DNA of 40,149 nucleotides from Candidatus Ryanbacteria bacterium RIFCSPHIGHO2_02_FULL_45_17b (GCA_001819815.1 MHNO01000010.1:1-40149); one strand, 5' to 3'. Positions 6,406 to 27,955 are shown, counted from the first letter of the stretch. Translations and numbers: made by a program. Notes: generated from the sequence alone by a model not told the origin.

Positions 6406-6424
6406 TTTTGTTTTATAATTATAA
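6391..6424. promoter_or_regulatory. Divergent promoter pair sharing a palindromic -10 element TTATAATTATAA. The plus-strand promoter is TTGACT-17-TATAAT, 11 nt before ATG 6431. A minus-strand TATAAT lies 12 nt before ATG 6405
   Basis: Sequence match to sigma70 consensus. Short spacing to the start codons suggests leaderless or near-leaderless mRNAs. Confidence 0.5.
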
Positions 6425-6430
6425 CCATTC

Positions 6431-7561
6431 ATGGATCAAAAGCAATACGTCCTTATATTTTCTACCGCGTATCTGCCATTTATAGGGGGAGCGGAACTCG
6501 CCATAAAAGAAATAACGGATCGCATGCACGATCTGCATTTTATTCTTATTACTGCGCGTATGCGGCGTGATCTTCCCCGCAGAGAACGTATAGGCACTAT
6601 AGATGTGTATCGGGTGGGTATAGGGATTCCATTTTTAGATAAGGTTCTTTCGCCGATTCTTGCCGCTTGTAAGGTATTCATGTTAACACGTCGTGTACAT
6701 GTATGTCTTTTTTGGAGCGTGATGGTGAGCTATACCACTATAACGCCAGCGCTTCTTCATATGTTTGGATTTTATAGGAACGTGCCTGTTCTTCTGACGT
6801 TGCAGGAAGGAGATTCCGAGAAACATATTTTTGAAGGGCGATTCGGGCTGATAGCTTTTTGGTGGCGTATATCTTTACGATACGCACGTTATGTTCATGT
6901 CATTAGCACCTATCTGGGCACGCTTGCAAGAGATTTTGGATATGGAGGAACGTTATCTGTTGTGCCAAACGGTGTTGATGCGCGTGTGTTTTATCCGCGG
7001 GATGTCGAAAGGGAAAAGAATGTAATAGTTACCACGTCTCGTCTTGTGAGGAAAAATGGTATTGATCTTCTTATTTCAGCAATGCCCTACGTGGTAAAAC
7101 ACGTGCCGGATGCGAAACTGCACATAATAGGCGATGGTGTCGAGAGAAACAAGCTTGAACGCATGGTAAAAGTATTGCACATGGAAGATGCAATTATTTT
7201 TTTTGGCGCGGTGTCTTTTGAAAAAGTACCCGATTATTTGGCACCAGCCTGGGTGTTTGTGCGCCCATCGCGTTCCGAGGGGTTAGGTACGGCATTTTTG
7301 GAAGCGATGGCAATGGGTATTCCGGTGGTGGCTACGCGTGTTGGTGGCATCCCAGATTTTTTAGAAGATGAGAAGACAGGTCTTTTTGCAGATGTTGATT
7401 CTGTGGAGGATATTGCAAAGAAAATTATTTGCCTTCTTATCGATGACGCGCTCCATGATAAGCTTTCACGGAATGGTAAGGAACTCATTAAGGAGACATA
7501 TTCATGGGATATCATAGCGGAACGTATAAAAACTATTTTTAAGAATCTATGCGCATCCTGA
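6431..7561 (+). CDS. GT4 family glycosyltransferase
   Basis: SRSEGLGTAFLEAMAMGIPVVATRVGGIPDFLEDEKTG motif. Confidence 0.85.
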   Translation: MDQKQYVLIFSTAYLPFIGGAELAIKEITDRMHDLHFILITARMRRDLPRRERIGTIDVYRVGIGIPFLDKVLSPILAACKVFMLTRRVHVCLFWSVMVSYTTITPALLHMFGFYRNVPVLLTLQEGDSEKHIFEGRFGLIAFWWRISLRYARYVHVISTYLGTLARDFGYGGTLSVVPNGVDARVFYPRDVEREKNVIVTTSRLVRKNGIDLLISAMPYVVKHVPDAKLHIIGDGVERNKLERMVKVLHMEDAIIFFGAVSFEKVPDYLAPAWVFVRPSRSEGLGTAFLEAMAMGIPVVATRVGGIPDFLEDEKTGLFADVDSVEDIAKKIICLLIDDALHDKLSRNGKELIKETYSWDIIAERIKTIFKNLCAS

Positions 7562-8727
7562 TTGCAACGGGAATATTTCCGCCGGATATCGGCGGGCCGG
7601 CGACGTATAGCAAGCTTCTGGTCGAAGAATTCAGTAAACGCGGACATAAAATGACCGTAGTAACTTATGCTACTATCGGAGGTTTCGCCTCCGATGACAA
7701 AAAATCGGAGGCGAAACCTCCGATAGTAACTGTTTCTCGTAACATACCGAAGGGAATTCGTCATGTTGTGTATTTCTGGAATATATTGCGGCGCGGCCGC
7801 AATGCAGATGTGATCTATGCGCAAGATGCCGTAAGTGCGGGTTTTCCGGCAATGATTGCCGCACGGATTTTACGCAAACGATTTTTTTTGAAAGTGGTGG
7901 GAGATCACGCGTGGGAACAGGGGATGCAACGGTACGGGGTGAGGGAATTGTTGGATGATTTTCTTATCAAAACATATGGAGCAGGCATTGCTTTGCTTCG
8001 ATTTTTTCAAATGCGCACTGCGACATCCGCGGAAAAAATCATTGTGCCGAGTATATATTTGAAATCTGTCGTGGAGCGATGGGACGTTTCTTCCGGGCGT
8101 ATTGTGGTTATCCCCAATGCTGTTTCGTTGCCGGACACCATTTTTGCAAAAGAGGAGGCACGCAAAATTCTCGGTCTGGAAGGTTTTTTACTTATTACAA
8201 TCGGCCGTCTTGTTCCATGGAAAGGGTTTCGCATGCTAGTGGAATTGATGCCAAAACTTCGGGAGGTTATCCCGGATATAAAACTTATAATAGTAGGTGA
8301 TGGACCGGAGAAGCAACAACTGGAATCAATGATTAAATCCGCCAGTGAGTGGAATACATTAAAGGATAACGTATTCTTGACCGGAAGCGTATCAAAAGAT
8401 AAGCTTGTCGCCTATCTTTCTGCTGCGGATGTATTTTTGTTGAATACGGGCTATGAAGGGTTTTCGCATCAGCTTATTGAAGCAATGGCAATGGGCGTAC
8501 CAGTCATAACTACGGATGCCGGTGGTAACAAAGAAGTCGTGCGTGATGGAGAAAATGCGCTTGTGGCAGAATATAATAATCCTGAAAGCTGGAAAAAGGC
8601 TATTTTGCGTTTATATGAAGATAAGGAATTACGGCGCGCGCTGTCTGAAAGTACTAAAGATATCACAGAACGTTATTCTATCGAGAATATGATACAAAAA
8701 ACCGAATCCCTAATTCTTAATTCATGA
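7549..8727 (+). CDS. GT4 family glycosyltransferase (PimA-like N-terminus MRILIATGIFPPDIGGPATY)
   Basis: GYEGFSHQLIEAMAMGVPVITTDAGGNKEVVRDGENALV motif. Start overlaps the upstream stop. Confidence 0.85.
   Translation: MRILIATGIFPPDIGGPATYSKLLVEEFSKRGHKMTVVTYATIGGFASDDKKSEAKPPIVTVSRNIPKGIRHVVYFWNILRRGRNADVIYAQDAVSAGFPAMIAARILRKRFFLKVVGDHAWEQGMQRYGVRELLDDFLIKTYGAGIALLRFFQMRTATSAEKIIVPSIYLKSVVERWDVSSGRIVVIPNAVSLPDTIFAKEEARKILGLEGFLLITIGRLVPWKGFRMLVELMPKLREVIPDIKLIIVGDGPEKQQLESMIKSASEWNTLKDNVFLTGSVSKDKLVAYLSAADVFLLNTGYEGFSHQLIEAMAMGVPVITTDAGGNKEVVRDGENALVAEYNNPESWKKAILRLYEDKELRRALSESTKDITERYSIENMIQKTESLILNS
7672..7727. repeat. Perfect 24-bp inverted repeat (actatcggaggtttcgcctccgat / atcggaggcgaaacctccgatagt) with an 8-nt spacer, inside the GT4 CDS. 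Each arm is itself a hairpin (cggagg-N5-cctccg)
   Basis: Read directly from the sequence. Encodes TIGGFASDDKKSEAKPPIVT in a loop region that is longer than usual for this GT4 subfamily. Confidence 0.9.
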
Positions 8728-9785
8728 AAGTGCTTATGATAAGCTCGGATCCAAAAATTCTACAGGATACCGAAGCAAAAAAACGCATACAGGAATACCG
8801 AACGCTTGTGGATGAACTCTATACGGTTGTTATCGCCGGAACGTTTAACGTATCCGCGTTTTTTCGCGCGTATTGGGAAGGAAGTCGCATACTTCGTCTC
8901 CATGGTTCTTCAGATTTCTTGATAACTGCGCAAGATCCTTCAGAACGATGGCTTATAGGATGGTTATTAGCTTTACGATTTCAGGTTCCTCTGGAAGTGC
9001 AGGTTCATACTGATTTGAGGAGCCCGTATCTATTGAAAGAATCAATAAAGAATCGCGTCCGTCTTCTTATTGCGCGGATTTTATTGCCGCGCGTCTCGTG
9101 TATTCGTGTTGTCTCAAGGCGCATTCAACAATCTCTTGGGGTCTGGCTTCCCGGCGTGGCGCCGAAAATAACAGTGCTGCCTGTGCATGTGGATGTTGAA
9201 AGATTTGAAACATTGCATCATATAGAGGAGCAAGGAGTTTTTCGCTTCCTTGTGATTTCTCGTCTTACAAGAGAAAAAAACGTTAAGCTTGCGATTGATG
9301 CCTTTGCTGAATTTCACGCGGAATTTTTACACACGAGTCTTGTTATTGTTGGTGATGGTCCTGAACGGAAGCGCCTTGAGGCGCGCGTGTTGAAACAGAA
9401 TATCAACGAAGGAGTAATTCTGTTTGCTGGTTGGAAAGAAGACATAACGCGTTATTTTCAATTTGCCAGTTGCTATCTTCTTACATCAAATTATGAGGGC
9501 TACGGCAGGACGGTGACCGAAGCGCTTGCGGCAGGCGTTCCTGTGATTATGACTGATGTAGGAGTCGCGGGAGATATAGTTCAAAACGAAAAATCCGGCT
9601 TGATTGTTCCTGTGGGTGACAAAAAAGAATTAATAAAAGCAATGCGTCGTGTTTTTACTGATTCCCATCTTCGGCGCACGCTCTCTGAAAACGGCCGCGC
9701 GGCGGTACGATTTTTTCCTTCCAAAGAAGCGTATTTGGATGCTTATAAAACTATATGGCATTTATGCGGCGCGAAGAAAAAATAA
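8724..9785 (+). CDS. GT4 family glycosyltransferase
   Basis: SNYEGYGRTVTEALAAGVPVIMTDVGVAGDIVQNEKSGLIVP motif. ATGA start/stop overlap with the upstream gene. Confidence 0.85.
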   Translation: MKVLMISSDPKILQDTEAKKRIQEYRTLVDELYTVVIAGTFNVSAFFRAYWEGSRILRLHGSSDFLITAQDPSERWLIGWLLALRFQVPLEVQVHTDLRSPYLLKESIKNRVRLLIARILLPRVSCIRVVSRRIQQSLGVWLPGVAPKITVLPVHVDVERFETLHHIEEQGVFRFLVISRLTREKNVKLAIDAFAEFHAEFLHTSLVIVGDGPERKRLEARVLKQNINEGVILFAGWKEDITRYFQFASCYLLTSNYEGYGRTVTEALAAGVPVIMTDVGVAGDIVQNEKSGLIVPVGDKKELIKAMRRVFTDSHLRRTLSENGRAAVRFFPSKEAYLDAYKTIWHLCGAKKK

Positions 9786-10795
9786 AAGTATGTTTTGTGT
9801 TGCCGGAAAAAGCGGAAGATACCGCGACGCATTTTGCGCATAAAGCAGAGCTGATGAAGGAGCTCCAAAATGAAGTAGAATTTTATACATACGCGGCTAT
9901 GGGTACGGATTTACTGCGCATTGTGTATGCGCGTTTTCGTGGCGTGCGCATATATTATGTGCAGTATTCATTTAAAGGCGCGCTCATTGCATATGTTGTT
10001 ACAAAGGTATTTGGCGGACGGGTGTTTTATTGGAATTGCGGCATGCCGTGGCTCTATAAACGCGGGTGGTTTGAAGAACAGTTGTTCCGGTTTATATTGC
10101 GCCACATGATTTTAGTTATTGCCACGGATGGGCTTGCGAATGAATATGCCACGCGGTATGGGCTAGACAAAAAAGATATCCGCGTGGTGCCGAATTATAT
10201 TCGCGTATCGCGCATGCAAAACAAGTCTAAAGAGGAAGCGCGAAAAGAGCTTGGGCTCCCGCAAGATAAAAAGATTGTGTTATTTTTACATCACGTGTCT
10301 CGTCGTAAGGGGGCGCATTTGTTGCCGGAAATTATTAAAGAATTCTCCAATCAAAGCGCTGTCTTGTTTGTAATTGTTGGCGAGGGGCCGGAAAAGAAAG
10401 AAATTGAATCAAGAATTAAGAATTATCAATCAGGGGAAAAGGTGCGGATGGAAGGAATGGTTGCGCATAACAAAACAGCATCTTATTTTATGGCAGCTGA
10501 TGTGTATCTCATGCCTTCCGAAGAAGAAGGTATGCCAAATGCTCTGCTGGAAGCAATGGCGGCTGGTGTTCCGTTTGTGGCATCTGATGTTGCCGCGGTT
10601 CGGGAAATGACACCACCCATGACTCATGAGTTTGTATTGCCCTATGGAAAAACTGATATGTTTGGGGAAAAAATAAAAAAGCTCCTCGGGGATGAAGAGC
10701 TTCGGAAGCGCATCGCCACAGAAGAGCAAGAATGGGTAGAGCGATATGATGTTTCTACTGTTGCGTCTCGTTATATGGCGTTGTTTCGAGAGTAG
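9755..10795 (+). CDS. GT4 family glycosyltransferase
   Basis: SEEEGMPNALLEAMAAGVPFVASDVAAVREM motif. Overlaps the upstream gene by about 30 nt. An alternative start is ATG 9764. Confidence 0.8.
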   Translation: MAFMRREEKIKVCFVLPEKAEDTATHFAHKAELMKELQNEVEFYTYAAMGTDLLRIVYARFRGVRIYYVQYSFKGALIAYVVTKVFGGRVFYWNCGMPWLYKRGWFEEQLFRFILRHMILVIATDGLANEYATRYGLDKKDIRVVPNYIRVSRMQNKSKEEARKELGLPQDKKIVLFLHHVSRRKGAHLLPEIIKEFSNQSAVLFVIVGEGPEKKEIESRIKNYQSGEKVRMEGMVAHNKTASYFMAADVYLMPSEEEGMPNALLEAMAAGVPFVASDVAAVREMTPPMTHEFVLPYGKTDMFGEKIKKLLGDEELRKRIATEEQEWVERYDVSTVASRYMALFRE

Positions 10796-11597
10796 AGATA
10801 CTTTCTTTCATGCGCGCTTCAATAGTGCGTACTCCTTTTGCAATATTTTCCAGCACGATACATGGCAGATACACGGCATAGCCAAAAAGAAGCAGTGAGG
10901 TATAGGGGAATAAAAATCCATTTTTTACGGCGTATTGTTCCATAAGCAATGTGATGGCAAAAAAAACAATCGTAAGAAAGAAATCTTGAAACTGGTGTAA
11001 AAATCGAAGTATGGGATACAAAAACGAGTGGTTCGCTCGAATACTTGAAATGGTGGGAGAAAATGGCGGGAGAGGAAAGATGTCGCGGTGCTTTATGTAT
11101 TTTTTGAGGAATATGCCATACGGGAGGTTGTGCGTAAGGCGCAGTAAAATACTGCTGAATCCTGCCAACATACCGGCAAGCAGTATGATTGATTCAGAAT
11201 ATGCGGTGGTATCTTTAAGTCCCCACGCAAGCGAAAGAAAAAAGAGGGGAGGAATAATATAATGATTCAACTCATCCAGATATATTCCTTTCAGAGAGAA
11301 TCGTTTTTTATAGCGCGCCACTTCTCCGTCCACGCGGTCTAGGATCAAATGAAGATAGAACAAAAACAGCGCTAGGAGTTTTAGGATCCCATTGGGGCAT
11401 AAAAAAAAGTAAGCGCCGATCAGACCAGAAAAAATACTCAAAAGAGTAATGGTGTTTGGAGCAAGAGGAGTGCGTACTAAAAGCCAGGTAAGAAATATAG
11501 ATGGTCCGCGCTGAAACCAGCGATAGCCCCAAGGGCGTTCTCGGCCTTCTAGTTTTTCGCGTTGCAAATTTTCTCGCAATTCTTGTATTGATTCCAT
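10755..11597 (-). CDS. CDP-alcohol phosphatidyltransferase family membrane protein
   Basis: Motif DRVDGEVARYKKRFSLKGIYLDELNH (D-G-x2-A-R-x8-G-x3-D-x3-D/N). Multi-TM. Start chosen at ATG 11597. The six-frame ORF starts at a TTG at 11633, inside an inverted repeat. Confidence 0.7.
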   Translation of the reverse strand: MESIQELRENLQREKLEGRERPWGYRWFQRGPSIFLTWLLVRTPLAPNTITLLSIFSGLIGAYFFLCPNGILKLLALFLFYLHLILDRVDGEVARYKKRFSLKGIYLDELNHYIIPPLFFLSLAWGLKDTTAYSESIILLAGMLAGFSSILLRLTHNLPYGIFLKKYIKHRDIFPLPPFSPTISSIRANHSFLYPILRFLHQFQDFFLTIVFFAITLLMEQYAVKNGFLFPYTSLLLFGYAVYLPCIVLENIAKGVRTIEARMKESISTLETTPYNETQQ

Positions 11598-11604
11598 ATT
11601 ATTC

Positions 11605-11789
11605 ACACTAGCATACGGACATTTTTGTGCCAAAACTCCAAACTTGCAAATTATAGTCGTCTTGTCTGGTAAAATTCATAACTGCGCCCCCGCTAAAGCG
11701 GGGTACTCAAACAGATGAATTTTACTTGCAATATTTCCTTAATTTTCTAAGTTTTTCCATTATGCACAAAAATGTCCGCATGCTAGTGT
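11605..11789. repeat. 26-bp inverted repeat (acactagcatacggacatttttgtgc at 11605-11630, gcacaaaaatgtccgcatgctagtgt at 11764-11789, 1 mismatch) flanking a 133-bp AT-rich segment. MITE-like or long-range RNA structure
   Basis: Read from the sequence. The interior has a TATAAT on the minus strand (about 11655) and a small hairpin gcgcccccgc-taaa-gcggggt. Confidence 0.6.
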
Positions 11790-13177
11790 CCTTTAATGGT
11801 TGCCAACGGCCGCAAATATGCCACGGGGCGTACAATGCCCGCTTGTTCCAGTTCGTTTGTTACTGCAAAAAGTCCTTCCGGAGATTGTAGCGGCACTTTT
11901 TTGAGTTCTTTTTCTTTTCGTTTGGAGATAATCATATGGTGCTGGGGATCTTCTTTGCTTTTGCCTTCTTCTTTGAATCGTCCGATTGTTTTTCCGGCGG
12001 ATGGCGTGGCAGAGCGAAGCGAGGAGTCTGTTTCTGACCCAACACCAAGGTAAGAAAGCGTATTAAAACCAGCGATCATTACTGGTTTTCCATCAAATAC
12101 GCGAATCGCATCTTGCCGGTGCACTATGAATTGTCCGTTTCCTATAGTTTCTTCCATAATACTGTTGTGTGCTGCATCCCACAAAAACGAAGCTGAACCT
12201 TTTGGCAATGCGTCGTTTATGCGTCGTAACAGCGCCGCTCGAAACGCGTAGCCATAGTTGAGCGCGATTTTTATGGATTGCATAAGACGTTTTCCTTCTT
12301 CCGTATGGAGCGGAGTTCCGGGAAAAGGAGTACGCGAAAAATACGCGCGCCAACACGCGCCAAAATTTCGTATGCCGTTCCAAGAGGTGAAATGGAAAAA
12401 AAACTTTAGCCAAAAAAGTATGAGTTTTTCAAAACGCGTATTTTTTTCGCGTCTGCCAAAATAGCGCCCCAAGTGATAGGTGGCATGCCCGCCGCCGCCA
12501 TGATAAAAAAGCACAATTTGATCTTCCCGCAAACCCCATGTGCTTGCGGTTTCCTTGTCTAAGATTTTTTCAATATATTGAATTTCAAGAAAATGATTTC
12601 CGCCGAAATTGTAGCCCATTTCATGCCGCGCGTTTATCCACGCGGAACGCGGCACTAAATGTTTTAGGTTTATTTTCTTTTTTTCTTCTTCCGAAAGCAC
12701 GCACCCTCCATATTCCATATTAGCGTCATCGGATGACGCTAATTGGTAGCGCGTAAAGGCGGCAGGCGCGCCATTAAGAAAAATATTCTTGAGTTCGCCC
12801 TCAGTAAGATCGTACACAGTTGCGGGGCGGGTATAAAGCCCGAGCCATTGGAGGGCTGTTTTCCATTTTCCAATCCACGGATGCACGCCTGCGCGGAGCC
12901 GCGTCGCAAAGTCGTTCAAAAATTCTTCGGAGAAATCGTATCGCGTGAGGTTTGTCTTATATAGGCTCATGCCGCAGTTCATGGCAGGAGCAGTGAGTTG
13001 CGGCACGATTATATCTTTGGTGGCGGCAACAAATTGAGGGGGGGATTCAAGCCCGGCTTTTGGATGGATATTAGGCAGGCAAACCAGCGGCCGCGCCAAA
13101 CTTGGCACATGTTTTTTCACGCGTTCTATTTTCCCCACTACTTCTGGGAATGGCTGATTGTCGCATGAGAATGGCAT
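11783..13177 (-). CDS. RtcB-family protein (paralog 1). The putative catalytic His of the HGAGR motif is replaced (SATPSAGKT)
   Basis: RtcB motifs in order: LPNIHPK...NCGM, GGNHFLE, YHGGGGHATYHLGRYF, WDAAHNSI. The C-terminal motif lacks His. Ends ...RPLATIKGH. Confidence 0.7.
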   Translation of the reverse strand: MPFSCDNQPFPEVVGKIERVKKHVPSLARPLVCLPNIHPKAGLESPPQFVAATKDIIVPQLTAPAMNCGMSLYKTNLTRYDFSEEFLNDFATRLRAGVHPWIGKWKTALQWLGLYTRPATVYDLTEGELKNIFLNGAPAAFTRYQLASSDDANMEYGGCVLSEEEKKKINLKHLVPRSAWINARHEMGYNFGGNHFLEIQYIEKILDKETASTWGLREDQIVLFYHGGGGHATYHLGRYFGRREKNTRFEKLILFWLKFFFHFTSWNGIRNFGACWRAYFSRTPFPGTPLHTEEGKRLMQSIKIALNYGYAFRAALLRRINDALPKGSASFLWDAAHNSIMEETIGNGQFIVHRQDAIRVFDGKPVMIAGFNTLSYLGVGSETDSSLRSATPSAGKTIGRFKEEGKSKEDPQHHMIISKRKEKELKKVPLQSPEGLFAVTNELEQAGIVRPVAYLRPLATIKGH

Positions 13178-13233
13178 TGCTTTTTATTATAGTTTATGGT
13201 AAGAATTATTTAAGTTTAGAGAGGGGGATTGTT

Positions 13234-13431
13234 GTGGAATTAACTACAGTATCGGATTTGTCTGTTGGTGACATCATAGAGGGTCCAGATGGTCCCGAGC
13301 TGGTGACGGACATTAAATCGTCATTAATCTCTTTTCAAGGGAATCACTGCATGACAGTGATTAGTGGACGGGAAAAGATTGTTCGGCATATCCGGGCAGT
13401 GGTATTAAAAAAGCTTCGCCTCATCCCTTAA
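13234..13431 (+). CDS. Small hypothetical protein (about 65 aa) between the two RtcB paralogs
   Basis: GTG at 13234, 6 nt after SD gaggggga. Conserved-looking MELTTVSDLSVGDIIEGPDGPELV.... The longer six-frame ORF starts at 13102. Confidence 0.35.
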   Translation: MELTTVSDLSVGDIIEGPDGPELVTDIKSSLISFQGNHCMTVISGREKIVRHIRAVVLKKLRLIP

Positions 13432-14854
13432 ATACGGCAATCGGGCGCGTGTAGGCTACCGCGCGCATGATGTTCGCATTCTCCAACGGTTTTATAACGG
13501 CATCCAGACCTTCATTGGTTATATGGACTGCCGTTTTTTTATACGGCGGTTTTGAGGTGTAGATATCTGTTGAATGATTGTTCGGATGCGGCTGTACGGC
13601 TCCGTTTTCTTTATGTGTTTTTATGGTTTCTCCTGCGCCATGATCTGCGGAAAAAAGATGATTTTGGGCTCCCTGAAGTCCTATACCGATATAAGAATTG
13701 GTGTTGTTGAAGCCGGATATAAGCACAGGTTTATCATCAAACACGCGGGTTGCGGTATGGCGGTGTACGATATATGTTTTTCCCGCGATGGCTTCTTCAT
13801 GAATGGCGTTATGAACCGTATCCCACAAAAGACACACAGATGTGCTTGCTCCAAATGTTTCTTGGAGCGCGTCTGTCACGCGTTTTACAATGGCAAGGCG
13901 AAACGCGTAGCTATAATTGAGAGATGCTTTGATAGAAGCAAAAAGCCGCGCGCCTTCAGGAGTGTTGACGGGGACCGCTTGAAATTTCATCGGATGAAAG
14001 TAATATCGCCAACGCGTACGGAAATTAAGGATACCTTCCTCGGAAGCAAAGTGAAAGAGGAACTTGGCAATGAACTGGAATAATCTTGTTTTGAAACTTT
14101 TGGATTCTTTTTTGCGTTTTGCAAAATAGCGACCCATATAGTGCGACACCGCCCCGCCCCCGCCATGATACATAATGACTACTTGGTCTTTGGAAATTCC
14201 CCAAGAAGAAGCTGTTGTTTCATCCGGTATATGTTCTATATACTGTACCTCAAGAAAATGGTTTCCCTTAAACCCATAGCCAATATCGTGCCTGCCAGAT
14301 ACCCATGCAGATCGGGGCAATATGCGTTCAGGCGGAAATGCGTGTTCAGTTGCATCATCCATAACATCACCCGCGTATTCAATATGATTGAGGGTTTCAG
14401 GAGACATATTATATTTACGCGCCGCGAATTTTGCGCCGTCGCGAATGGCGTCCGCCAGATCTTTTTTAGAAAAGTCGTATTGTGCGCCTGTTCGGTCTAT
14501 GATGCCAAGCCACAGTAATATATTTTGTATGGTGCCAAACCGCGCGCTTCGGTGTTCTTGCATATGTGCGTAAAATGTTTCCAGCTTGTCAGGCGTAAGG
14601 TCGTTTCGTTTGAGAGATGTGAGTATTATGCCCATACCGCACCCAACCGATGGCGCGGTGAGTTCGGGAATGATAACACCATCGGCGGCGGTGACAAATG
14701 AACACGGCGCTTCGTTGTTTTCTTTGAGATGGATGTCTGGCAGGCACACAAGGGGGCGTGTAATCTGCGGTAGGGAAGCAATAGAAAAAAGCACCTTCTG
14801 TAATTTTTGATCAGCAAGATTGCATCCGAGGTTTTGAATTTTTTCGGGATTCAT
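13421..14854 (-). CDS. rtcB: RtcB-family RNA ligase-like protein (paralog 2, all motifs intact)
   Basis: LPDIHLK...GCGM, GNHFLEVQYIE, YHGGGGAVSHYMGRYF, WDTVHNAI, SADHGAGETI, C-terminal RPIAVFKG. This aligns motif for motif with E. coli RtcB. Confidence 0.75.
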   Translation of the reverse strand: MNPEKIQNLGCNLADQKLQKVLFSIASLPQITRPLVCLPDIHLKENNEAPCSFVTAADGVIIPELTAPSVGCGMGIILTSLKRNDLTPDKLETFYAHMQEHRSARFGTIQNILLWLGIIDRTGAQYDFSKKDLADAIRDGAKFAARKYNMSPETLNHIEYAGDVMDDATEHAFPPERILPRSAWVSGRHDIGYGFKGNHFLEVQYIEHIPDETTASSWGISKDQVVIMYHGGGGAVSHYMGRYFAKRKKESKSFKTRLFQFIAKFLFHFASEEGILNFRTRWRYYFHPMKFQAVPVNTPEGARLFASIKASLNYSYAFRLAIVKRVTDALQETFGASTSVCLLWDTVHNAIHEEAIAGKTYIVHRHTATRVFDDKPVLISGFNNTNSYIGIGLQGAQNHLFSADHGAGETIKTHKENGAVQPHPNNHSTDIYTSKPPYKKTAVHITNEGLDAVIKPLENANIMRAVAYTRPIAVFKG

Positions 14855-14910
14855 TGTAGTATTATTTTACAACAAAAATCGTGTTTTAGCAACTATAATA
14901 GGTGGTCCCC

Positions 14911-15966
14911 ATGAAGCTCCATTATCTTACCCCCCTTACATTTCCATCTCGTTATGTAAACCGCCTGCAGGTTATGAAGATGTCAGGCGCGTTTTCAAAA
15001 CGGGTAGATTTTGCGTTATATATTGCGGAGTCGCGTATGTCCCGAAATGATCTTTTTCAGACATACAATATCCATGAACCTTTTTGTGTGGAAGAAGTGG
15101 GAAATGCAGCGTTTCTGCCACGTAGGTTTTGGGGGGCGCGCCGGTTTCTCCCATGTATAAGAACTGCTCCGGAACATACAGTATGGTATGCGCGCGACGT
15201 GTTGCTTACCGATTGGCTGTTATTTTTTCACAAACAGTTTTACGGGAATTATTTTTTTGAACTGCATACGCTTTCCCGATTTTCAGAACAGCGATACCGC
15301 CGTGTTTTTGCGGGCGCGCGTGGTATTATTACCACGAATGAAGATAAGAAAAAGATTCTTATGAAACGATTTGGTATTGATGAACAGCATATTCTTGTTG
15401 CTCCCAATGGTGTCGATTTTGATGAGTTTGACGTGCTGAAAGATCGCAAGCTTGAGATGCGGAAAGAGCTTGGTATTGATGAACATTGTGTTCTTGTGGC
15501 ATATGTCGGCACGGACGCAAAAGAATATGGAACCGATGCATTACGCCACGCTGGACAGCTTTTACAGAATACCGCGCGTATTGAAATTATCTCCGGAAGG
15601 CCGAGAAATGAAGCTTTGAAATATATGGCAGCAGCGGATATATTGGTGGCGCCGTACTGCGCTACCAGCGAACATTTTATAACATATATGTCGCCAATGA
15701 AAATACGAGAATACATGGCAATGGAGCGACCCATGATTGTTTCTGATCTTCCCTCAATACGCGCGTGTGTGCCATCTGAAGCATATGCGTTTTTTGCGGT
15801 TCCGTGTGAGAGTTCAGACCTTGCGCGTGCCATAAATGAAGCGTGCGCAAATATGGAAGAGGCGCGCCGGCGGGCTAAGAATGCTTATCACTTGCTGCGG
15901 GCAGGAGGTTTTTCTTGGGATGATCGCGTTACGCGTATTATTGATTTTATAAAGACGCGCGTATGA
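14911..15966 (+). CDS. GT4-like glycosyltransferase
   Basis: C-terminal EYMAMERPMIVSDLPSIRACV. ATG 14911 is preceded by SD aggtgg and TATAAT (14894). Confidence 0.7.
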   Translation: MKLHYLTPLTFPSRYVNRLQVMKMSGAFSKRVDFALYIAESRMSRNDLFQTYNIHEPFCVEEVGNAAFLPRRFWGARRFLPCIRTAPEHTVWYARDVLLTDWLLFFHKQFYGNYFFELHTLSRFSEQRYRRVFAGARGIITTNEDKKKILMKRFGIDEQHILVAPNGVDFDEFDVLKDRKLEMRKELGIDEHCVLVAYVGTDAKEYGTDALRHAGQLLQNTARIEIISGRPRNEALKYMAAADILVAPYCATSEHFITYMSPMKIREYMAMERPMIVSDLPSIRACVPSEAYAFFAVPCESSDLARAINEACANMEEARRRAKNAYHLLRAGGFSWDDRVTRIIDFIKTRV

Positions 15967-16790
15967 GCGTGTTTTTGCATAGAATGTTAGAAATATGCCT
16001 TTTTCTAAGCGGCTTAAATGCGGTATATATATTTTTCTCAAAAAAACGATTAATCATGTTGGGATACCACAGTATTTCAGATTCATTGAACAGTATCCTG
16101 TTGCAAAACGATATCTATAAACATCTTTCTGTTCCGGCGGCTGTTTTTGAAAAACAGCTTATGTTTTTGCAGAAGCACAACTATACGTTTCTGCGATTTT
16201 CTGATTTGCGGAATATACGAGAGGGGAAGCAAGCAATGCCTAATCGTCCGGTGCTTTTGTATTTTGATGATGGATACAAAGACAATTATCTTAATGCGTA
16301 TCCTATTCTCAAGAAGCACGGCATACCGGCGACTCTTTTTGTGGCAACCGATTGTATTGATAAAAAAAGGTTGTTATGGGATAGCGCTCTGGATCCGGCG
16401 CGGGCGAATATTTTTTTGTCTTGGGATGATATCCGCGCGATGCAGGATGTTTTTGATATAGGCACGCACACGGCTTCGCATCGGAAATTAACAACACTGA
16501 AGCCGGATGAAGTGAAGGAAGAATTTGAAATGTCTCGAAAGCGGATTTATGAAATGACGGGGAAGCGTGTTGTAGCACTTTCATATCCGAAAAGCCGATG
16601 GACTTTGGAAACGCGCCGCTGTGCCCAAGAAGCAGGTTTTGAGTTTATTCTTGCTCATGGGAGGGGATTTCGGCACAGTGCTGATTTTCGCTATCTGGAA
16701 AAAATACCCGTTGGTCCTGCGGATTCAATGATGCAGTTTCGCGTGAAGCTTGGTATATATTATCCATTGATGAATATGGGGAGGAAATGA
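15963..16790 (+). CDS. Polysaccharide deacetylase (CE4 / NodB-homology domain)
   Basis: LLYFDDGYKDNY...ATLFVATDCI and HTASHRKL motifs. Confidence 0.8.
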   Translation: MSVFLHRMLEICLFLSGLNAVYIFFSKKRLIMLGYHSISDSLNSILLQNDIYKHLSVPAAVFEKQLMFLQKHNYTFLRFSDLRNIREGKQAMPNRPVLLYFDDGYKDNYLNAYPILKKHGIPATLFVATDCIDKKRLLWDSALDPARANIFLSWDDIRAMQDVFDIGTHTASHRKLTTLKPDEVKEEFEMSRKRIYEMTGKRVVALSYPKSRWTLETRRCAQEAGFEFILAHGRGFRHSADFRYLEKIPVGPADSMMQFRVKLGIYYPLMNMGRK

Positions 16791-17518
16791 AGCAACCTTT
16801 TATAGAACGAACGTATTTCTTTTTTACCTATGCGCGGGTGATTCTTGATGATGAGCTTTTGCGCCGTCTTATCCATAAACAGGCATATTCGTATATAGTC
16901 GGTTTGTCCCATGAAAACTTGTCTTTTGATGTGCCGGTTTCCGTGCGGAAAAAACAAACTATCAATATATATCTCAATAAACCCATGGAAGAAATTTTTC
17001 GCGGATACAGCGACACGGCGCGCAATGAAATTCGTCGCACGGAAAAAATGGAAGGCTTGCAATTTACGCGCGATGACGGCAAATGGGGCGACGTGTATGC
17101 CATGTATCTTAAGCATCGCAACGCGCGCGGTTTGCCGGTGCACACGTGTTCTTTTTTACAGCAATGCATGCTTTTTAATGCGTATTGGAACGGGACTCTG
17201 ATTTCTACGATTACGTGTTATGATGCGCATCCCTATCTCCGCATTCAAAATATTTTTTCCCGGCTTGATGGAGGCGATAAGGAATTGCGGCGTATCGCGG
17301 GCTTTGCGGCGCGGCGGTTGGTACACGAAATTTGCACGTATGGCAACGGAAATGGATATCAGCTTCTTGATATGGCTTCAGCTAATTTTACGAATCCCGC
17401 AAGAGCCGGCATTACGCAATTTAAAAACTCGTTTGGCGGCGTAGTATCAGATGAATATACCTATACATACAAGAGCGCGCTGGCGCGGTTTGCCGGTCGT
17501 ATACGAAACATGGTATGA
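16787..17518 (+). CDS. FemAB / BioF2-like GNAT-fold protein (Acetyltransf_6-like). Putative aminoacyl or acyl transferase
   Basis: C-terminal GNGYQLLDMASANFTNPARAGITQFKNSFGG resembles the FemAB/CelD-like fDfgG...FK..fG signature. This is a weak call. Confidence 0.4.
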   Translation: MKQPFIERTYFFFTYARVILDDELLRRLIHKQAYSYIVGLSHENLSFDVPVSVRKKQTINIYLNKPMEEIFRGYSDTARNEIRRTEKMEGLQFTRDDGKWGDVYAMYLKHRNARGLPVHTCSFLQQCMLFNAYWNGTLISTITCYDAHPYLRIQNIFSRLDGGDKELRRIAGFAARRLVHEICTYGNGNGYQLLDMASANFTNPARAGITQFKNSFGGVVSDEYTYTYKSALARFAGRIRNMV

Positions 17519-18225
17519 AAAAACTTTCCATTATCATATCTGCCTATAATGAAGCGCGTACCATCCGGCGTGTTTTGGATGCGGTACGCAAAGCACCGTT
17601 GCCCCCCGAGATTCAGGAACGAGAAATCATTGTTATAAATAATGGTTCGTCTGATGAAACGGCGGACATTCTTTCTCACGAACAGGATATTAGCGTAATA
17701 ACACTTCAGCCAAACCGCGGTAAAGGAGGCGCTTTAAAAGTCGGGTTTGCCAACGCGACGGGTGATATCGTGCTTGTACAGGATGCTGATCTGGAATACG
17801 ATCCAGAGGATTATCCGGTGTTGCTTGGTCCGATTCTTTCTGGAAAAGCAGAGGCGGTTCTCGGTAAACGGCCGCTCGCTGACGTGTCTCTTTTTCACGG
17901 AAGGCATCAGGTGCGTCACATAGCGCCCTTTGTGGGTAATCGTTTGATAAATCGTTTTATCAACGTGTTGTATGGCAACGCATGCAAAGATTACGCGTGC
18001 GCGTATAAGGTGTTTACAAAACGCGTTGTCCAGACAGTGCCGGTACGATCAAATGGATTTGATTATGAGGTTGAGCTTTTGTGTCGCATCATGCGCCGCG
18101 GCATTCCGTTAGCAGAAGTACCGGTTCGGTACCAGCCGCGATCATATGAAGAAGGAAAAAAGATCCGCGCGGCAGACGGATTACGCATTGTATGGGTAGC
18201 GGTGCGAAGCAGATTTTTTGATTGA
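17515..18225 (+). CDS. GT2 polyprenyl-phosphate glycosyltransferase (Dpm1/ArnC/GtrB-like). Short soluble form
   Basis: LSIIISAYNEARTI, VINNGSSDETADIL, GKGGALKVGF, VLVQDADLEYDPEDYPVLL (DXD). Confidence 0.8.
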   Translation: MKKLSIIISAYNEARTIRRVLDAVRKAPLPPEIQEREIIVINNGSSDETADILSHEQDISVITLQPNRGKGGALKVGFANATGDIVLVQDADLEYDPEDYPVLLGPILSGKAEAVLGKRPLADVSLFHGRHQVRHIAPFVGNRLINRFINVLYGNACKDYACAYKVFTKRVVQTVPVRSNGFDYEVELLCRIMRRGIPLAEVPVRYQPRSYEEGKKIRAADGLRIVWVAVRSRFFD

Positions 18226-18242
18226 CTTTTTGTATTGCGTTT

Positions 18243-18352
18243 CTACTTTGTATATAAGAAAAATGTTCTTTATGGCCGACAGGTATTTATATAGAAGGAC
18301 ATCGCCTGCCTGCCGGTAGGCAAGTAGAATATTTTTCTTATATACAAAGTAG
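18243..18352. repeat. Perfect 22-bp inverted repeat (ctactttgtatataagaaaaat / atttttcttatatacaaagtag) flanking 66 nt that hold an inner tgcct-gccggt-aggca hairpin. Lies between the GT2 and GT-C genes
   Basis: Read directly from the sequence. No T-run follows. Confidence 0.85.
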
Positions 18353-18370
18353 ATCGAAGCTTCATGTAGT

Positions 18371-19837
18371 ATGAATATATCCATTTCAGAACCAATGAAA
18401 GATATTTTTGCGGTAGGCAGCGCCCTTCTCGTATTGGTGTGTTTTGCCGTGTGGCACCCGACGGGAGATTTTGTGTCTTCTCCATCGTACTGGGTTGATG
18501 AAGCGGTAAGTGTGGAAAAAGCGCGCAATTTTTTAACGTATGGGGTATTGGATGTCGCGGTTGCTCCCGGTGTTTTGTCTGGAAAGCCCTACGCGACAGC
18601 GGCCGCGGGTCCGCTTCTTACGCTTCCTCTCGCCGGCTTTTTTTCACTTTTTGGTATTGGAATTATGCAGGCAAGATTATATATGTTGTTGTGGCTGATA
18701 CTACTTCTATGTGTTTCTTATTTTCTTGTACGCAACATTTCAGGAAGGCGCGCCGCGCTGTGTGCCGTGTTATTACTGGCAACATTTTCCCCGCTGTATG
18801 CAAATGGCAAGACGGCAACGGGGGATATTCCGGGTTTTGTGGCGCTTTTGTTGGCGCTCTACTATCTCTATATCCGGAAGTGGTATCTATTTTCTGGTAT
18901 GTTGTTAGGTATTGCAACAACAACGAAGCCGTCGCTGTATATCCCCCTTATTGCCGTCGCTATTTTTGAAATAGTTTTTTCTGAACATGAAAGACGAATA
19001 CATAAGGCGGCAGTCGTTGTTGGTGGGGCGGCGCTTATTCTTGTGCCGTGGCTTATTTCTTTGCCTTCGCATCCGCTTGTGCAGACTTCATGGGAAGAAG
19101 TGTATGTTTTTTTTCAGAACCCGTTTCCATCCGACGCGACACCTGTCTTCGGTGTGGGCGCTTTATTCCATAGCACTGTTTTGCAATACATGGCGCTTGT
19201 CATGGCAGCCTTGTTTGGTGTGTGGCGCACGCGGGGAAAAGATGAAACATGGATACGATTTGTGCGTTTTGCTTTCTTATACGCGCTCGCGGCATTTGTG
19301 TTGTATCTTCGCAGTCCTGGCTGGTTGCGGTATCTTCTTAGTGGTACGCTCTTGCTGTTTCTTATTTTTCCACAGACGATACAAATGCTTTTACACCAGC
19401 GCGCGTGGCGGTATCGTGTTCCTTCGTGGACTGCTACCTTTGTACTTATTATGTTTATCGGAGCGCAGGCGGTTCATTTTTTCTTTTTTTCCTGGCGCAC
19501 CGCGTCTGACGCATCCATGCGCGATAGTACCGTGTTAGAGAGCATCGTACAATCACGCGAGACGGTTGGATTTATAGACGCGCCAGCGCTTGCTTCTTTA
19601 TTTGATTCGCGCCGAAAATATCAAGTTATACGTATTAGCGGAAATACTATAGTGGGAGAAAGTCCGCTTGCTGTTCGTGCTGATATGCTTCCGGACTATG
19701 TTTTTATTCCTTACAACAGGTTTGGTGATCAGTCAATGCGTGATTTTGTGGATCCGTATACAAATGTCTTGAAAGAACGTTATATGGATTATACGCCGCC
19801 CGACGCGCGTTTTTCCTTGTATAAGAAAATCCCATGA
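18371..19837 (+). CDS. GT-C fold membrane glycosyltransferase (PMT/ArnT-like, GT39/GT83-like)
   Basis: Multi-TM. N-terminal loop motif YWVDEAVSVEKARNFLTYGVLD (DE/Y...A.N). Large C-terminal soluble domain. Confidence 0.7.
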   Translation: MNISISEPMKDIFAVGSALLVLVCFAVWHPTGDFVSSPSYWVDEAVSVEKARNFLTYGVLDVAVAPGVLSGKPYATAAAGPLLTLPLAGFFSLFGIGIMQARLYMLLWLILLLCVSYFLVRNISGRRAALCAVLLLATFSPLYANGKTATGDIPGFVALLLALYYLYIRKWYLFSGMLLGIATTTKPSLYIPLIAVAIFEIVFSEHERRIHKAAVVVGGAALILVPWLISLPSHPLVQTSWEEVYVFFQNPFPSDATPVFGVGALFHSTVLQYMALVMAALFGVWRTRGKDETWIRFVRFAFLYALAAFVLYLRSPGWLRYLLSGTLLLFLIFPQTIQMLLHQRAWRYRVPSWTATFVLIMFIGAQAVHFFFFSWRTASDASMRDSTVLESIVQSRETVGFIDAPALASLFDSRRKYQVIRISGNTIVGESPLAVRADMLPDYVFIPYNRFGDQSMRDFVDPYTNVLKERYMDYTPPDARFSLYKKIP

Positions 19838-22244: not shown

Positions 22245-22987
22245 AAACAGACTATCGCATATCGCATCAAAGTGAGCAGGTAAGTCGTGTGTATGATGAA
22301 GTTCTTTATAAACAGGGAACATATGACGACGCATTATGGAGATGGGAACAGTGTATCCTTGAAAAAGAGATCACATTGCTGCAAACGAAAGCAACACCTA
22401 TTTCACTGCTTGATTTTGCGTGCGGCACGGGAAGAATTCTTACTTTTTTGGAGAACAAGGTGAACAATGCGGTGGGTGTGGATATTGCGGAAGAGATGCT
22501 AAGCCGCGCGCGGCAGGTTGTGCAGAATGCCCGTTTGATTAAAGCGGATCTCACTCGCATAGACGCGCTTCGGGGAGAACCATTTGATTTGGTAACCGCG
22601 TTTCGATTTTTTTTAAACGCGGAGCCTGTATTGCGTGAAGAAGCAATGGCGGTTCTTTTTCAAAAACTTCGAAATCAAGATAGCCTGCTGATATTCAATA
22701 TACATGGAAATCTTTGGAGTCATCGGGTCTTTACGAAAATAGGGCTTTGGTTTCGGGGAAAGCGTCTAAGCGTAAGCACGCGCCGCGAGATGGAATTACT
22801 TGCCAGGCGGCATGGTTTGGAGATGGCGCGGTGGTATGGGTTTGGCATACTTCCGAAGATAGCGTATCGGGTTATTGGTTCACGGATTGCTCATGGTATA
22901 GACAAGATTCTTTCTCATATTCCCGGTATGCGTTTTATATCTTACGATCTTGTTTTTGTATGTAAAAAAGGTATTGTAAAAAAGTGA
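22241..22987 (+). CDS. Class I SAM-dependent methyltransferase
   Basis: Motif [20 protein letters not shown] overlap with the upstream stop. The six-frame ORF begins at 22196. Confidence 0.75.
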
Positions 22988-27628: not shown

Positions 27629-27868
27629 CAACTCCTCGGGGGCTCATTAAGCCGCTTTGCGCTCTCACGCTTAGACGGCTTTTTACATATTCCTACGATC
27701 TAGCGGAATTAGATGGCTCCGAATAAAACACACCTCCTCTATAATAACCTAAAGCGACTCCAATATGATGCATAAGATTCGAACTACGTCTTGAACGGAA
27801 AAAAGCTTGATTTTACTTTGCGTTCTCCATTCAATCTACTACTAAACCATAACGATAATCTTACTGTG

Positions 27869-27955
27869 CGGTGGGGGTGAGATTCGAACTCACGATACGG
27901 TTTCCCGTATAACGGTTTTCAAGACCGTCTCCTTAAACCGCTCGGACACCCCACC
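27869..27955 (-). tRNA. tRNA-Ser (anticodon UGA), type II with long variable arm. CCA not encoded
   Basis: Reverse-complement GGTGGGGTGTCCGAGCGGTTTAAGGAGACGGTCTTGAAAACCGTTATACGGGAAACCGTATCGTGAGTTCGAATCTCACCCCCACCG. Anticodon loop CTTGAAA. Close match to bacterial tRNA-Ser(UGA). Confidence 0.9.

What the first reader, a model, noticed from the sequence alone, without database searches (positions are those of the whole stretch)
11783..14854. Tandem RtcB paralogs, one lacking the guanylylated histidine: a possible enzyme/pseudoenzyme pair
Both proteins carry the full set of RtcB metal-binding motifs (PD/NIH, GCGM, GNHF, YHGGGG, W-x3-HN). Paralog 2 keeps the C-terminal HGAG motif whose His is the covalent GMP acceptor in characterised RtcB. 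In paralog 1 that position reads TPSAGKT (His to Pro). The pair are clearly duplicated (same order of motifs, similar length, about 40% identity by eye). They sit head-to-tail with a small SD-led ORF between them, inside a glycosylation locus. A His-less RtcB could act as a regulatory or scaffolding partner, or use a different chemistry.
Basis: partly seen in the sequence, partly recalled or inferred. Interest (0 to 1): 0.7.

Follow-up and report, generated by a model that had tools for sequence, protein, structure and literature searches.

The report
His-less RtcB-like paralog in glycan operon
Two neighbouring genes resembling the RNA ligase RtcB, one of which has lost its catalytic histidine, form a conserved operon with a membrane phosphotransferase inside a cell-surface sugar-polymer locus, which suggests this RtcB branch works on glycans rather than on RNA.

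Summary
Two RtcB-family genes lie head-to-tail on the minus strand. B (13421-14854) keeps the nucleophile His405. A (11783-13177) has Pro392 there. They are 43% identical.

A is not a pseudogene:
- Its clade lacks the His in 76/76 homologs (Pro, Ala, once Gln).
- dN/dS is 0.10.
- It keeps four of five metal ligands and the guanine-reading residues.
- Its fixed differences from B cluster at the active site.

The larger finding is the context. B, A and a variant CDP-alcohol-phosphotransferase-like membrane protein (10755-11597; fourth signature Asp replaced by His) form a conserved operon. It sits in a glycosylation locus of Ryanbacteria (Patescibacteria). Single-copy His-bearing relatives in other lineages, including Nitrospirota, are also often followed by this transferase inside polysaccharide loci.

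The whole subfamily lacks the Asp95 metal ligand and Arg238, which holds the 5'-OH strand. No RNA-repair partners are nearby.

My best reading is a GTP-dependent phosphomonoester activation and phosphodiester-forming module for a surface glycoconjugate, with A doing or assisting a His-independent step. This is inference only. The "small SD-led ORF" between the genes is antisense and not conserved.

The parts
13421..14854 (-). B: RtcB-like protein, 477 aa, with the nucleophile His405 kept (first gene of the operon)
   Evidence: Pfam RtcB E 9e-55. PDB RtcB hits E 1e-26. AF2 model pLDDT 93.9, and Foldseek matches only RtcB structures, TM about 0.70. It keeps D40, C72, N198, H199, E202, H230, H348, N349, H405 and K476, but has S69 for Asp95 and G234 for Arg238.
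13640..13642 (-). CAT codon of His405 of B, equivalent to Pho His404 / Eco His337 (the GMP acceptor)
11783..13177 (-). A: RtcB-like protein, 464 aa, without the nucleophile His (second gene)
   Evidence: Pfam RtcB E 3.8e-40. AF2 model pLDDT 88.7, and Foldseek matches only RtcB structures, TM 0.65-0.68. It has N36 for Asp65, A65 for Asp95, P392 for His404 and S393 for Gly405. It keeps C68, N194, H195, E198, H226, H337, N338 and K462. dN/dS is 0.10 against the closest relative.
12002..12004 (-). CCA codon of Pro392 of A, at the position of the guanylylated His
   Evidence: In homologs the position is Pro in 62/62 clade A, Ala in 14/14 clade A' and Gln in L107.
10755..11597 (-). c4: CDP-alcohol-phosphotransferase-like membrane protein, 280 aa from the ATG (third gene). 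Its signature is D-x2-D-G-x2-A-R-x8-G-x3-D-x3-H.
   Evidence: Pfam PF01066 36.2 bits, cut-off 22. The closest structure is AF2299 (4o6m), E 1e-12, where the fourth Asp aligns with His. His is at that position in 120/120 homologs. It has four TM-like segments. It follows A on the same strand in every informative locus.
13178..13420 (.). 243-nt spacer between B and A. It carries an antisense ORF (GTG 13234..13431, plus strand) that is not conserved.
   Evidence: The closest relative has a 9-nt spacer.
14855..14901 (.). 47-nt divergent intergenic region between B and the upstream GT4-like gene. It holds a weak promoter-like match (14892-14864, minus strand).
   Evidence: This is a consensus match only, no better than shuffles.
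5236..10795 (.). Five GT4 glycosyltransferase genes flanking the operon on the c4 side. The last one converges on c4.
   Evidence: Synteny is conserved in related loci.
14902..23967 (+). Glycan genes on the B side: GT4-like, polysaccharide deacetylase, an unknown gene, GT2, two PMT_2 (GT-C), GT4, a methyltransferase and GDP-mannose 4,6-dehydratase.

Best explanation
The two genes are the first two cistrons of a conserved three-gene operon, B -> A -> c4, embedded in a surface-glycan biosynthesis locus of a Candidatus Ryanbacteria (Patescibacteria) genome.

**What the proteins are (shown).** Both are soluble members of a divergent RtcB subfamily. The subfamily keeps the binuclear-site core (Cys98, His203, His234, His329), the phosphate-contacting Asn202 and Asn330, and the guanine-reading Glu206, Ser385 and Lys480. 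It has lost the Asp95 metal ligand and Arg238, which holds the 5'-OH polynucleotide.

**What they probably do (inferred).**
- The subfamily no longer joins RNA.
- B uses the RtcB chemistry on a non-nucleic-acid phosphomonoester. It takes GMP from GTP onto His405. It then passes the GMP to a sugar-, alditol-, inositol- or lipid-phosphate, giving an X-pp-G intermediate.
- That activated phosphate ends up in a phosphodiester bond of a surface glycoconjugate. This happens in partnership with c4, a variant CDP-alcohol phosphotransferase.
- c4's own chemistry (NDP-alcohol + ROH -> phosphodiester + NMP) mirrors step 3 of RtcB.
- A arose by one ancient duplication and cannot self-guanylylate. It has a conserved, remodelled metal and guanine pocket. 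It most likely binds or processes the guanylylated intermediate made by B in a His-independent step (joining, transfer to c4, or hydrolytic editing).
For: **A is functional.**
- The His is absent in 76/76 A/A' homologs, while the other pocket residues stay invariant.
- A+A' is monophyletic with 99% NJ bootstrap.
- dN/dS is 0.10 for A, against 0.08 for B and 0.14 for c4.
- The fold model is confident.
- Fixed A-versus-B differences cluster at functional residues, P = 2.6e-5.

**The operon is conserved.**
- B lies upstream of A on the same strand in 15 of 16 informative loci, sometimes with a 4-nt overlap.
- c4 lies downstream of A in all 17 informative loci.
- The two observed breaks (L002, L101) fall between B and A, so A stays with c4.

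**The subfamily is linked to glycan loci beyond this clade.**
- Single-copy His+ relatives are followed by c4 in L014, L015/L016, L017, L019 (Nitrospirota), L025 and L028. Their neighbours include Wzx, Wzy_C, Bac_transf, GT4, GT2 and STT3.
- In 80 metagenome loci, 31 of 57 informative ones have c4 directly downstream.

**RNA-ligase features are lost.**
- Asp95 -> Ser/Ala and Arg238 -> Gly throughout the subfamily. The roles of these residues are taken from PMC9745838 and PMC8051266.
- No Archease, RtcA or PrfH is present in the window or in the related loci examined.

**There is a precedent for the pairing.** c4's nearest named relatives include IPCT/DIPPS, in which a nucleotidyltransferase is fused to the CDP-alcohol phosphotransferase it feeds.
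Against: - There is no biochemical evidence, and the substrate is unknown.
- Gene neighbourhood is the only functional link.
- Adjacency to c4 is not universal. It is absent in L020 and L021, and in about 40% of the informative metagenome loci, mostly the Cys98->Asp branch.
- Two of three distant c4 homologs sampled had no RtcB-like gene within 5 kb.
- Loss of Asp95 could mean that B itself guanylylates poorly or uses different metal chemistry.
- The Arg190 loop has an Arg two residues away, so some nucleic-acid contacts might persist.
- The role assigned to A is pure inference. Physical interaction of A with B or c4 was not tested.
- I found no data on whether a His-less RtcB can perform step 3.
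Confidence: 0.45

Rival explanations
1. Enzyme plus true pseudoenzyme. A is non-catalytic. It acts as a scaffold, an allosteric activator of B (Archease-like in role), or an adaptor docking B to the membrane protein c4.
For: A has lost the nucleophile His and the neighbouring Asp65, Asp403 and Gly405. E. coli H337A can neither guanylylate nor ligate (PMC3458531). A always sits between B and c4 and stays with c4 when the locus breaks.
Against: The metal ligands, Asn202, Asn330 and the guanine-reading residues are invariant in A. A pure scaffold would not need them. A has also gained new invariant polar residues at the pocket: His231, Gln355, Asp356, Asn67 and Asn190. However, ligand binding without turnover would explain the same pattern, so this rival is not clearly separable from the best explanation.
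Confidence: 0.28
2. An ordinary RNA repair or splicing ligase pair that merely sits in a glycan locus because gene order is conserved in streamlined Patescibacteria genomes.
For: Both proteins have a Pfam RtcB match and the RtcB fold. The guanine pocket and most metal ligands are retained.
Against: The link to c4 and to polysaccharide genes recurs in unrelated locus architectures and other lineages, including Nitrospirota and soil metagenomes. Asp95 and Arg238 are lost in the whole subfamily. No Archease, RtcA, RtcR or PrfH is nearby. NCBIfam RtcB equivalog scores are far below their cut-offs, for example 89-94 bits against 407.
Confidence: 0.1
3. A is an autonomous nucleotidyl transferase with a relocated nucleophile. 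One candidate is the A-specific invariant His231, in the loop after the M1 ligand His226.
For: His231 is invariant in 76/76 A/A' sequences and is Ala in B. It lies in a flexible loop next to the active-site motif, with pLDDT below 50 at 231-238.
Against: No alignment places a His at or near position 404. Asp65, which is lost together with His404, is Asn in all A copies. Model coordinates could not be inspected, so geometry is untested.
Confidence: 0.1
4. A is a recently inactivated pseudogene.
For: It has lost the catalytic His.
Against: The reading frame is intact. Orthologs are conserved down to 47-55% identity. dN/dS is 0.10. The fold model is confident. The loss is shared by a clade with 99% bootstrap support.
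Confidence: 0.01

Closest known systems
Canonical RtcB 3'-phosphate/5'-OH RNA ligase (P. horikoshii PH1602, E. coli RtcB, human RTCB)
   Same: Same fold (TM 0.65-0.70) and Pfam family. The M1 ligands Cys98, His234 and His329 are kept, as are the M2 ligand His203, Asn202, Asn330 and the guanine determinants Glu206, Ser385 and Lys480. B keeps the His404 nucleophile in the HGAG motif.
   Different: Both copies lack Asp95 (M2) and Arg238 (5'-OH strand contact). Tyr451 and Arg408 are not conserved. The motif 'HGGGG' replaces 'H(T/S)GSRG', and there is an invariant Lys at Pho Gly69. A also lacks His404 and Asp65. The genomic partners are glycan genes, not Archease, RtcA, RtcR or PrfH.
RtcB paralog sets and specialised RtcBs (E. 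coli RtcB2-PrfH ribosome repair, PMC9223846 and PMC9304027; Myxococcus RtcB1-3, from my own knowledge)
   Same: There are several RtcB-family copies with diverged roles in one genome.
   Different: As far as I know, those paralogs keep the nucleophile His and act on nucleic acids. Here one copy has lost it, and the context is polysaccharide biosynthesis.
IPCT/DIPPS: bifunctional CTP:inositol-1-phosphate cytidylyltransferase / CDP-inositol phosphotransferase (PDB 4mnd; NCBIfam NF041135)
   Same: A nucleotidyl-transferring enzyme is coupled directly to a CDP-alcohol-phosphotransferase-family membrane domain. c4 hits this family and AF2299 as its nearest relatives.
   Different: The soluble partner here has the RtcB fold, not a cytidylyltransferase fold. 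The pocket keeps the guanine-reading residues, which suggests GTP rather than CTP. c4 scores far below the family cut-offs and has His for the fourth signature Asp.
Pseudoenzyme paralogs in general
   Same: A duplicated enzyme has lost its catalytic nucleophile, is kept under selection, and is encoded next to the active copy.
   Different: All remaining ligand-binding residues of A are invariant, and its changes are focused on the pocket. That fits altered chemistry or ligand binding better than an empty site.

Membership tests
RtcB family (Pfam PF01139) | Significant match to the family profile over the full length | tested here: met
   A scores 138.8 bits and B 187 bits, against a cut-off of 27.
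RtcB family (Pfam PF01139) | RtcB fold | tested here: met
   AF2 models have pLDDT 88.7 (A) and 93.9 (B). Foldseek finds only RtcB structures at E <= 1e-19, TM 0.65-0.70.
Canonical RtcB RNA ligase | M1 metal ligands Cys98, His234, His329 | tested here: met
   Present in A (C68, H226, H337) and B (C72, H230, H348). Invariant in all clades.
Canonical RtcB RNA ligase | M2 metal ligands Asp95, Cys98, His203 | tested here: not met
   Asp95 is Ser in B (36/36) and Ala or Ser in A. His203 and Cys98 are kept.
Canonical RtcB RNA ligase | Nucleophile His404 (Eco His337) that forms the His-GMP adduct | tested here: not met
   Met by B (His405). Not met by A (Pro392), nor by any of the 76 A/A' homologs.
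Canonical RtcB RNA ligase | Guanine-specific pocket (Glu206, Ser385, Lys480) | tested here: met
   Conserved in both copies and in all clades. The residue roles are from PMC9745838 and PMC8668186.
Canonical RtcB RNA ligase | 5'-OH polynucleotide contacts (Arg238, Arg190, Gln194) | tested here: not met
   Arg238 is Gly in 119/119 subfamily sequences. Arg190 is Ser or Asn and Gln194 is Asp or Glu. An Arg lies two residues away from position 190, so that loop is ambiguous.
Canonical RtcB RNA ligase | Genomic association with RNA repair or splicing partners (Archease, RtcA/RtcR, PrfH) | tested here: not met
   None appears among the Pfam-scanned genes of the window or the called genes of the related loci.
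Canonical RtcB RNA ligase | GTP/Mn-dependent sealing of 3'-P and 5'-OH RNA ends | not testable with these tools
   Needs an enzyme assay.
Pseudoenzyme (dead paralog) | Loss of the catalytic residue together with relaxed constraint on the rest of the active site | tested here: not met
   The nucleophile is lost, but the other pocket residues are invariant. dN/dS is 0.10. Changes are focused on the pocket.
CDP-alcohol phosphotransferase (PF01066), for c4 | Profile match and polytopic membrane protein | tested here: met
   36.2 bits against a cut-off of 22. AF2299 E 1e-12. Four TM-like segments.
CDP-alcohol phosphotransferase (PF01066), for c4 | Full signature D-x2-D-G-x2-A-R-x8-G-x3-D-x3-D | tested here: not met
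   The fourth Asp is His in 120/120 family members. All NCBIfam equivalogs score far below their cut-offs.

The most novel reading that the evidence does not exclude
This is a split RtcB-type ligase that works on glycans instead of RNA. B charges a sugar-, inositol-, alditol- or lipid-phosphate with GMP through His405. The His-less A, together with the His-variant CDP-alcohol phosphotransferase, then performs the joining step that creates a phosphodiester in a surface glycoconjugate. It would be the first non-nucleic-acid function of the RtcB fold and a nucleotidyltransferase-independent route to NDP-activated phospho-alcohols.
Probability: 0.25. Interest if true: 0.9.

Novelty: new variant of a known kind. 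Interest (0 to 1): 0.72.

Why it matters
RtcB is known only as a nucleic-acid ligase and capping enzyme. A large, cross-lineage branch wired into polysaccharide loci with a dedicated membrane phosphotransferase would extend RtcB chemistry to glycoconjugate biosynthesis. That chemistry is activation of a phosphomonoester by GMP, followed by attack of a hydroxyl.

The naturally His-less, strongly conserved paralog offers a ready-made separation of the guanylylation steps from the joining step. This bears directly on how RtcB catalyses step 3.

It also flags an uncharacterised surface-glycan pathway in Patescibacteria, whose envelope biology is poorly known. I found no paper in the searchable library linking RtcB to CDP-alcohol transferases or to polysaccharide clusters in this sense.

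Tried and rejected
1. **Shifted histidine.** I checked whether the His is retained at a shifted position. Pairwise, HMMER-to-PDB and multiple alignments all place Pro at His404, flanked by a conserved Ser two residues upstream and Ala-Gly two and three residues downstream.
2. **Recent pseudogene.** Rejected on an intact frame, a deep conserved clade and dN/dS of 0.10.
3. **The small ORF between the genes.** It is antisense and has no family hit. It has no similarity to the small ORFs found between B and A in other loci. It is absent from the closest relative.
4. **RNA elements.** Rfam found only tRNA-Ser at 27869-27955. The promoter and terminator scans were no better than shuffles.
5. **Archease or RNA repair genes.** None in the window.
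6. **Literature.** I found nothing on the role of Asp65, on step-3 activity of His-mutant RtcB on pre-formed ppG ends, or on RtcB in Patescibacteria.
7. **First tree attempt.** A Biopython BLOSUM distance tree timed out. I replaced it with a numpy Kimura-distance NJ tree.
8. **Reverse test from c4.** Only 1 of 3 distant c4 homologs had an adjacent RtcB-like gene. This tempers the claim of obligatory coupling.
9. **Not possible here.** Complex prediction (B-A, A-c4) and inspection of model coordinates could not be done with the tools.
Full report
**1. The observation**

The region holds two long ORFs on the minus strand. B runs 13421..14854 (477 aa) and is upstream in transcription. A runs 11783..13177 (464 aa).

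- Both match Pfam RtcB over their full length: B at E 9e-55 and A at E 3.8e-40.
- They are 43% identical to each other over 450 residues (E 1e-128).
- HMMER alignments to solved RtcB structures place P. horikoshii His404, the GMP acceptor, opposite His405 of B in 'SADHGAGET'.
- The same alignments place it opposite Pro392 of A in 'SATPSAGKT'.
- An L-INS-i alignment gives the same answer. It includes E. coli RtcB, taken from MG1655, and the PhoRtcB segments printed.
- The codons are CAT (13640-13642) and CCA (12002-12004).

So the central observation is correct. Two details are not.

- Both copies lack the Asp95 ligand of metal site M2. It is Ser69 in B and Ala65 in A.
- The 'small SD-led ORF' lies on the plus strand, antisense to both genes. 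It runs from the GTG at 13234 to 13431, inside the listed ORF 13102..13431.
  - It has no family match.
  - It has no similarity to the ORFs found between the genes in other genomes.
  - It is absent from the closest relative, where B and A are 9 nt apart.

**2. The His-less copy is old, constrained and remodelled at the pocket**

A search of 5.8 billion proteins returned about 120 relatives, all from Candidatus Ryanbacteria and other Patescibacteria MAGs. They fall into three groups.

| Group | Members | Identity to A | Nucleophile motif | Other motifs |
|---|---|---|---|---|
| A | P0001-P0063 | 55-100% | T/S-P-S-A | LPNIH, HRQDA |
| A' | P0064-P0077 | about 50% | S-A-S-A-A | as clade A |
| B-like | P0078-P0120 | lower | DHGAG | LPDxH, HRHTA |

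- Position 404 is Pro in 62/62 A sequences and Ala in 14/14 A' sequences. It is Gln in one further contig (L107).
- A+A' is monophyletic with 99% NJ bootstrap. The whole subfamily separates from Pho and Eco RtcB at 100%. The loss therefore happened once.
- At 50% clustering of 1.84 billion representatives, the His-less clade collapses to a single representative. Only a few other, more degenerate His-less lineages are visible.
- Against the closest relative (86% identical), dN/dS is 0.10 for A, 0.08 for B and 0.14 for the downstream gene.
- The AF2 model of A is confident (pLDDT 88.7, pTM 0.90) and matches only RtcB structures. B gives pLDDT 93.9.

Within A/A', the pocket is invariant. This covers the M1 ligands, His203, Asn202, Asn330, and the guanine-reading Glu206, Ser385 and Lys480. 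The roles of these residues are taken from PMC9745838, PMC10630183 and PMC8668186.

The columns that are fixed differently in A and B are Pho 65, 75, 96, 97, 198, 200, 239, 240, 292, 351, 352, 403, 404 and 405. Nine of these 14 lie within two residues of literature-defined functional residues (hypergeometric P = 2.6e-5). Asp65 becomes Asn in every His-less protein.

This is the pattern of an active site that was re-engineered, not abandoned.

**3. The context is the main finding**

Thirteen loci from reference MAGs, three from the closest species and three pairs from metagenomes show the same order on one strand: B, then A, then c4.

- c4 is a 270-290 aa membrane protein, 10755..11597 in the window.
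- B precedes A in 15 of 16 informative loci. The gap ranges from a 4-nt overlap to 2.3 kb. Where the gap is large it holds small opposite-strand ORFs.
- c4 follows A in all 17 informative loci. In L006 and L007 a TPR gene intervenes.
- The two exceptions break between B and A. L002 has A-c4 without B. L101 has B with the left half of the glycan locus but pilin-like genes in place of A and c4.

c4 matches Pfam CDP-OH_P_transf.

- Its nearest solved relative is AF2299 (4o6m, E 1e-12), followed by IPCT/DIPPS.
- Its nearest NCBIfam families are inositol-phosphate-using synthases, all far below their cut-offs.
- The fourth Asp of its signature is His in 120/120 homologs.

Around the operon lie GT4, GT2 and GT-C (PMT_2) glycosyltransferases. 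There is also a polysaccharide deacetylase, a methyltransferase and GDP-mannose 4,6-dehydratase. Relatives add a DegT aminotransferase.

**4. The link reaches beyond this clade**

- Single-copy, His-bearing relatives at 33-39% identity are each followed directly by a c4 homolog inside polysaccharide loci of different architecture. The neighbours include Wzx, Wzy_C, Bac_transf, GtrA and STT3. The loci are L014, L015/L016, L017, L019 (a Nitrospirota MAG), L025 and L028.
- A profile search revealed a large soil-metagenome branch in which Cys98 is replaced by Asp (118/118) and His404 is kept.
- In a survey of 80 metagenome loci, 31 of 57 informative ones carry c4 immediately downstream, and 3 more carry it elsewhere in the locus.

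The coupling is not absolute.

- L020 and L021 lack c4 nearby.
- L026 has it 5 kb away.
- Only one of three distant c4 homologs sampled had an adjacent RtcB-like gene.

**5. Why I think this branch does not join RNA**

- The whole subfamily has Asp95 -> Ser/Ala and Arg238 -> Gly ('HGGGG').
- Arg238 binds the first two phosphodiesters of the 5'-OH strand, and its E. coli counterpart is implicated in engaging that strand (PMC8051266).
- Arg190 and Gln194 are also replaced, although an Arg two residues away leaves that loop ambiguous.
- Tyr451 and Arg408 are not conserved.
- No Archease, RtcA, RtcR or PrfH gene is present in the window or the related loci.
- RtcB equivalog models score far below their cut-offs.

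**6. Mechanism**

*Shown.* There is a conserved operon of a His-bearing RtcB-like protein, a His-less RtcB-like protein and a variant CDP-alcohol phosphotransferase in a glycan locus. The metal and guanine pockets are retained in both soluble proteins. The nucleophile is lost in A. The nucleic-acid-contact residues are lost in both.

*Inferred.*
- B is guanylylated on His405. It transfers GMP to a non-nucleic-acid phosphomonoester.
- The activated phosphate then ends up in a phosphodiester of a surface glycoconjugate.
- c4 could consume the GDP-activated donor. The analogy is IPCT feeding DIPPS.
- Alternatively, c4 could produce the phosphomonoester that the RtcB-like enzymes then activate. 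Its nearest relatives make inositol-phosphate-terminated products.
- A cannot perform steps 1 and 2 of the RtcB cycle. E. coli H337A neither guanylylates nor ligates (PMC3458531).
- A retains what step 3 needs chemically: the M1 site, Asn202 and the guanine pocket. In step 3 a hydroxyl attacks the activated phosphate and GMP leaves, so no enzyme nucleophile is required. That follows from the established reaction scheme. It has not been demonstrated for a His-less enzyme.
- I therefore favour A as the partner that binds or processes the X-pp-G intermediate. A ligand-binding but non-catalytic adaptor role is nearly as likely.

**7. Comparison with what is known, and novelty**

The proteins are RtcB-family members by fold and profile. 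They fail three defining features of the canonical ligase: Asp95, Arg238, and for A the nucleophile. They also lack its usual genomic partners.

The closest conceptual precedents are RtcB paralog sets such as RtcB2-PrfH, the IPCT/DIPPS fusion, and pseudoenzyme paralogs in general.

Searches of the paper library found nothing linking RtcB to CDP-alcohol transferases, polysaccharide clusters or Patescibacteria. I rate this a new variant of a known kind, with a substantial chance of a new biochemical role for the RtcB fold.

**8. Limits**

- All functional statements rest on sequence, predicted fold and gene neighbourhood.
- The tree is neighbour-joining only.
- dS is near 1.
- Complexes and model coordinates could not be examined.
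- Whether these genomes also carry a canonical RtcB was not tested.

Noticed in passing
window 24082..26904 (-), with 27868..27955 and 27997..29580: A 940-aa ORF with no Pfam match lies in a GC-richer block (0.51-0.52 against about 0.44). It is next to tRNA-Ser(TGA) and a PIF1-like helicase. This may be an inserted island.
   Followed up: no
window 10755..11597 (-) and 120 homologs (P0385-P0504): The CDP-alcohol-phosphotransferase-like partner family has His in place of the fourth signature Asp in every member. It is a distinct, unnamed subfamily.
   Followed up: yes
L001 9036-9862, L009 7721-9170, L012 9506-9919: Small opposite-strand ORFs (about 135-170 aa, CxxC near the N-terminus plus hydrophobic segments, no Pfam hit) are inserted between B and A in some genomes. 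They are conserved among those genomes but absent from the window.
   Followed up: partly
L015, L019-L021, L026 and most of L030-L099: A large soil-metagenome branch of RtcB-like proteins has the bridging Cys98 replaced by Asp (118/118) and the motif 'HLGPG'. These genes sit after Wzx/Wzy genes and before giant beta-helix/NosD/PKD proteins.
   Followed up: partly
P0266, P0278, P0297, P0300 (global representatives): Other rare RtcB-like lineages lack the nucleophile His (Phe, Gln or Tyr at the position). Unlike clade A, three of them (P0266, P0297, P0300) also have degraded guanine-pocket residues.
   Followed up: no
L107 11415-12809: An A-type copy on a 524-kb contig carries Gln at the His404 position. 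Pro, Ala and Gln are therefore all tolerated there.
   Followed up: no
L002 and L101: The only breaks of the operon separate B from A-c4. L002 has A-c4 alone. L101 has B with the left half of the glycan locus, followed by pilin-like (N_methyl) genes.
   Followed up: partly
L028 377-7463: A single RtcB-like gene and c4 sit next to GT4, DUF2304, GT2 and an STT3-type oligosaccharyltransferase. This hints at a link to protein glycosylation in that organism.
   Followed up: no
window 3704..5239 (+): A protein with a lamin-tail domain and PKD domains lies at the edge of the glycan locus. A homolog occupies the same position in several related loci (cluster c7; L014 has an LTD protein too).
   Followed up: no
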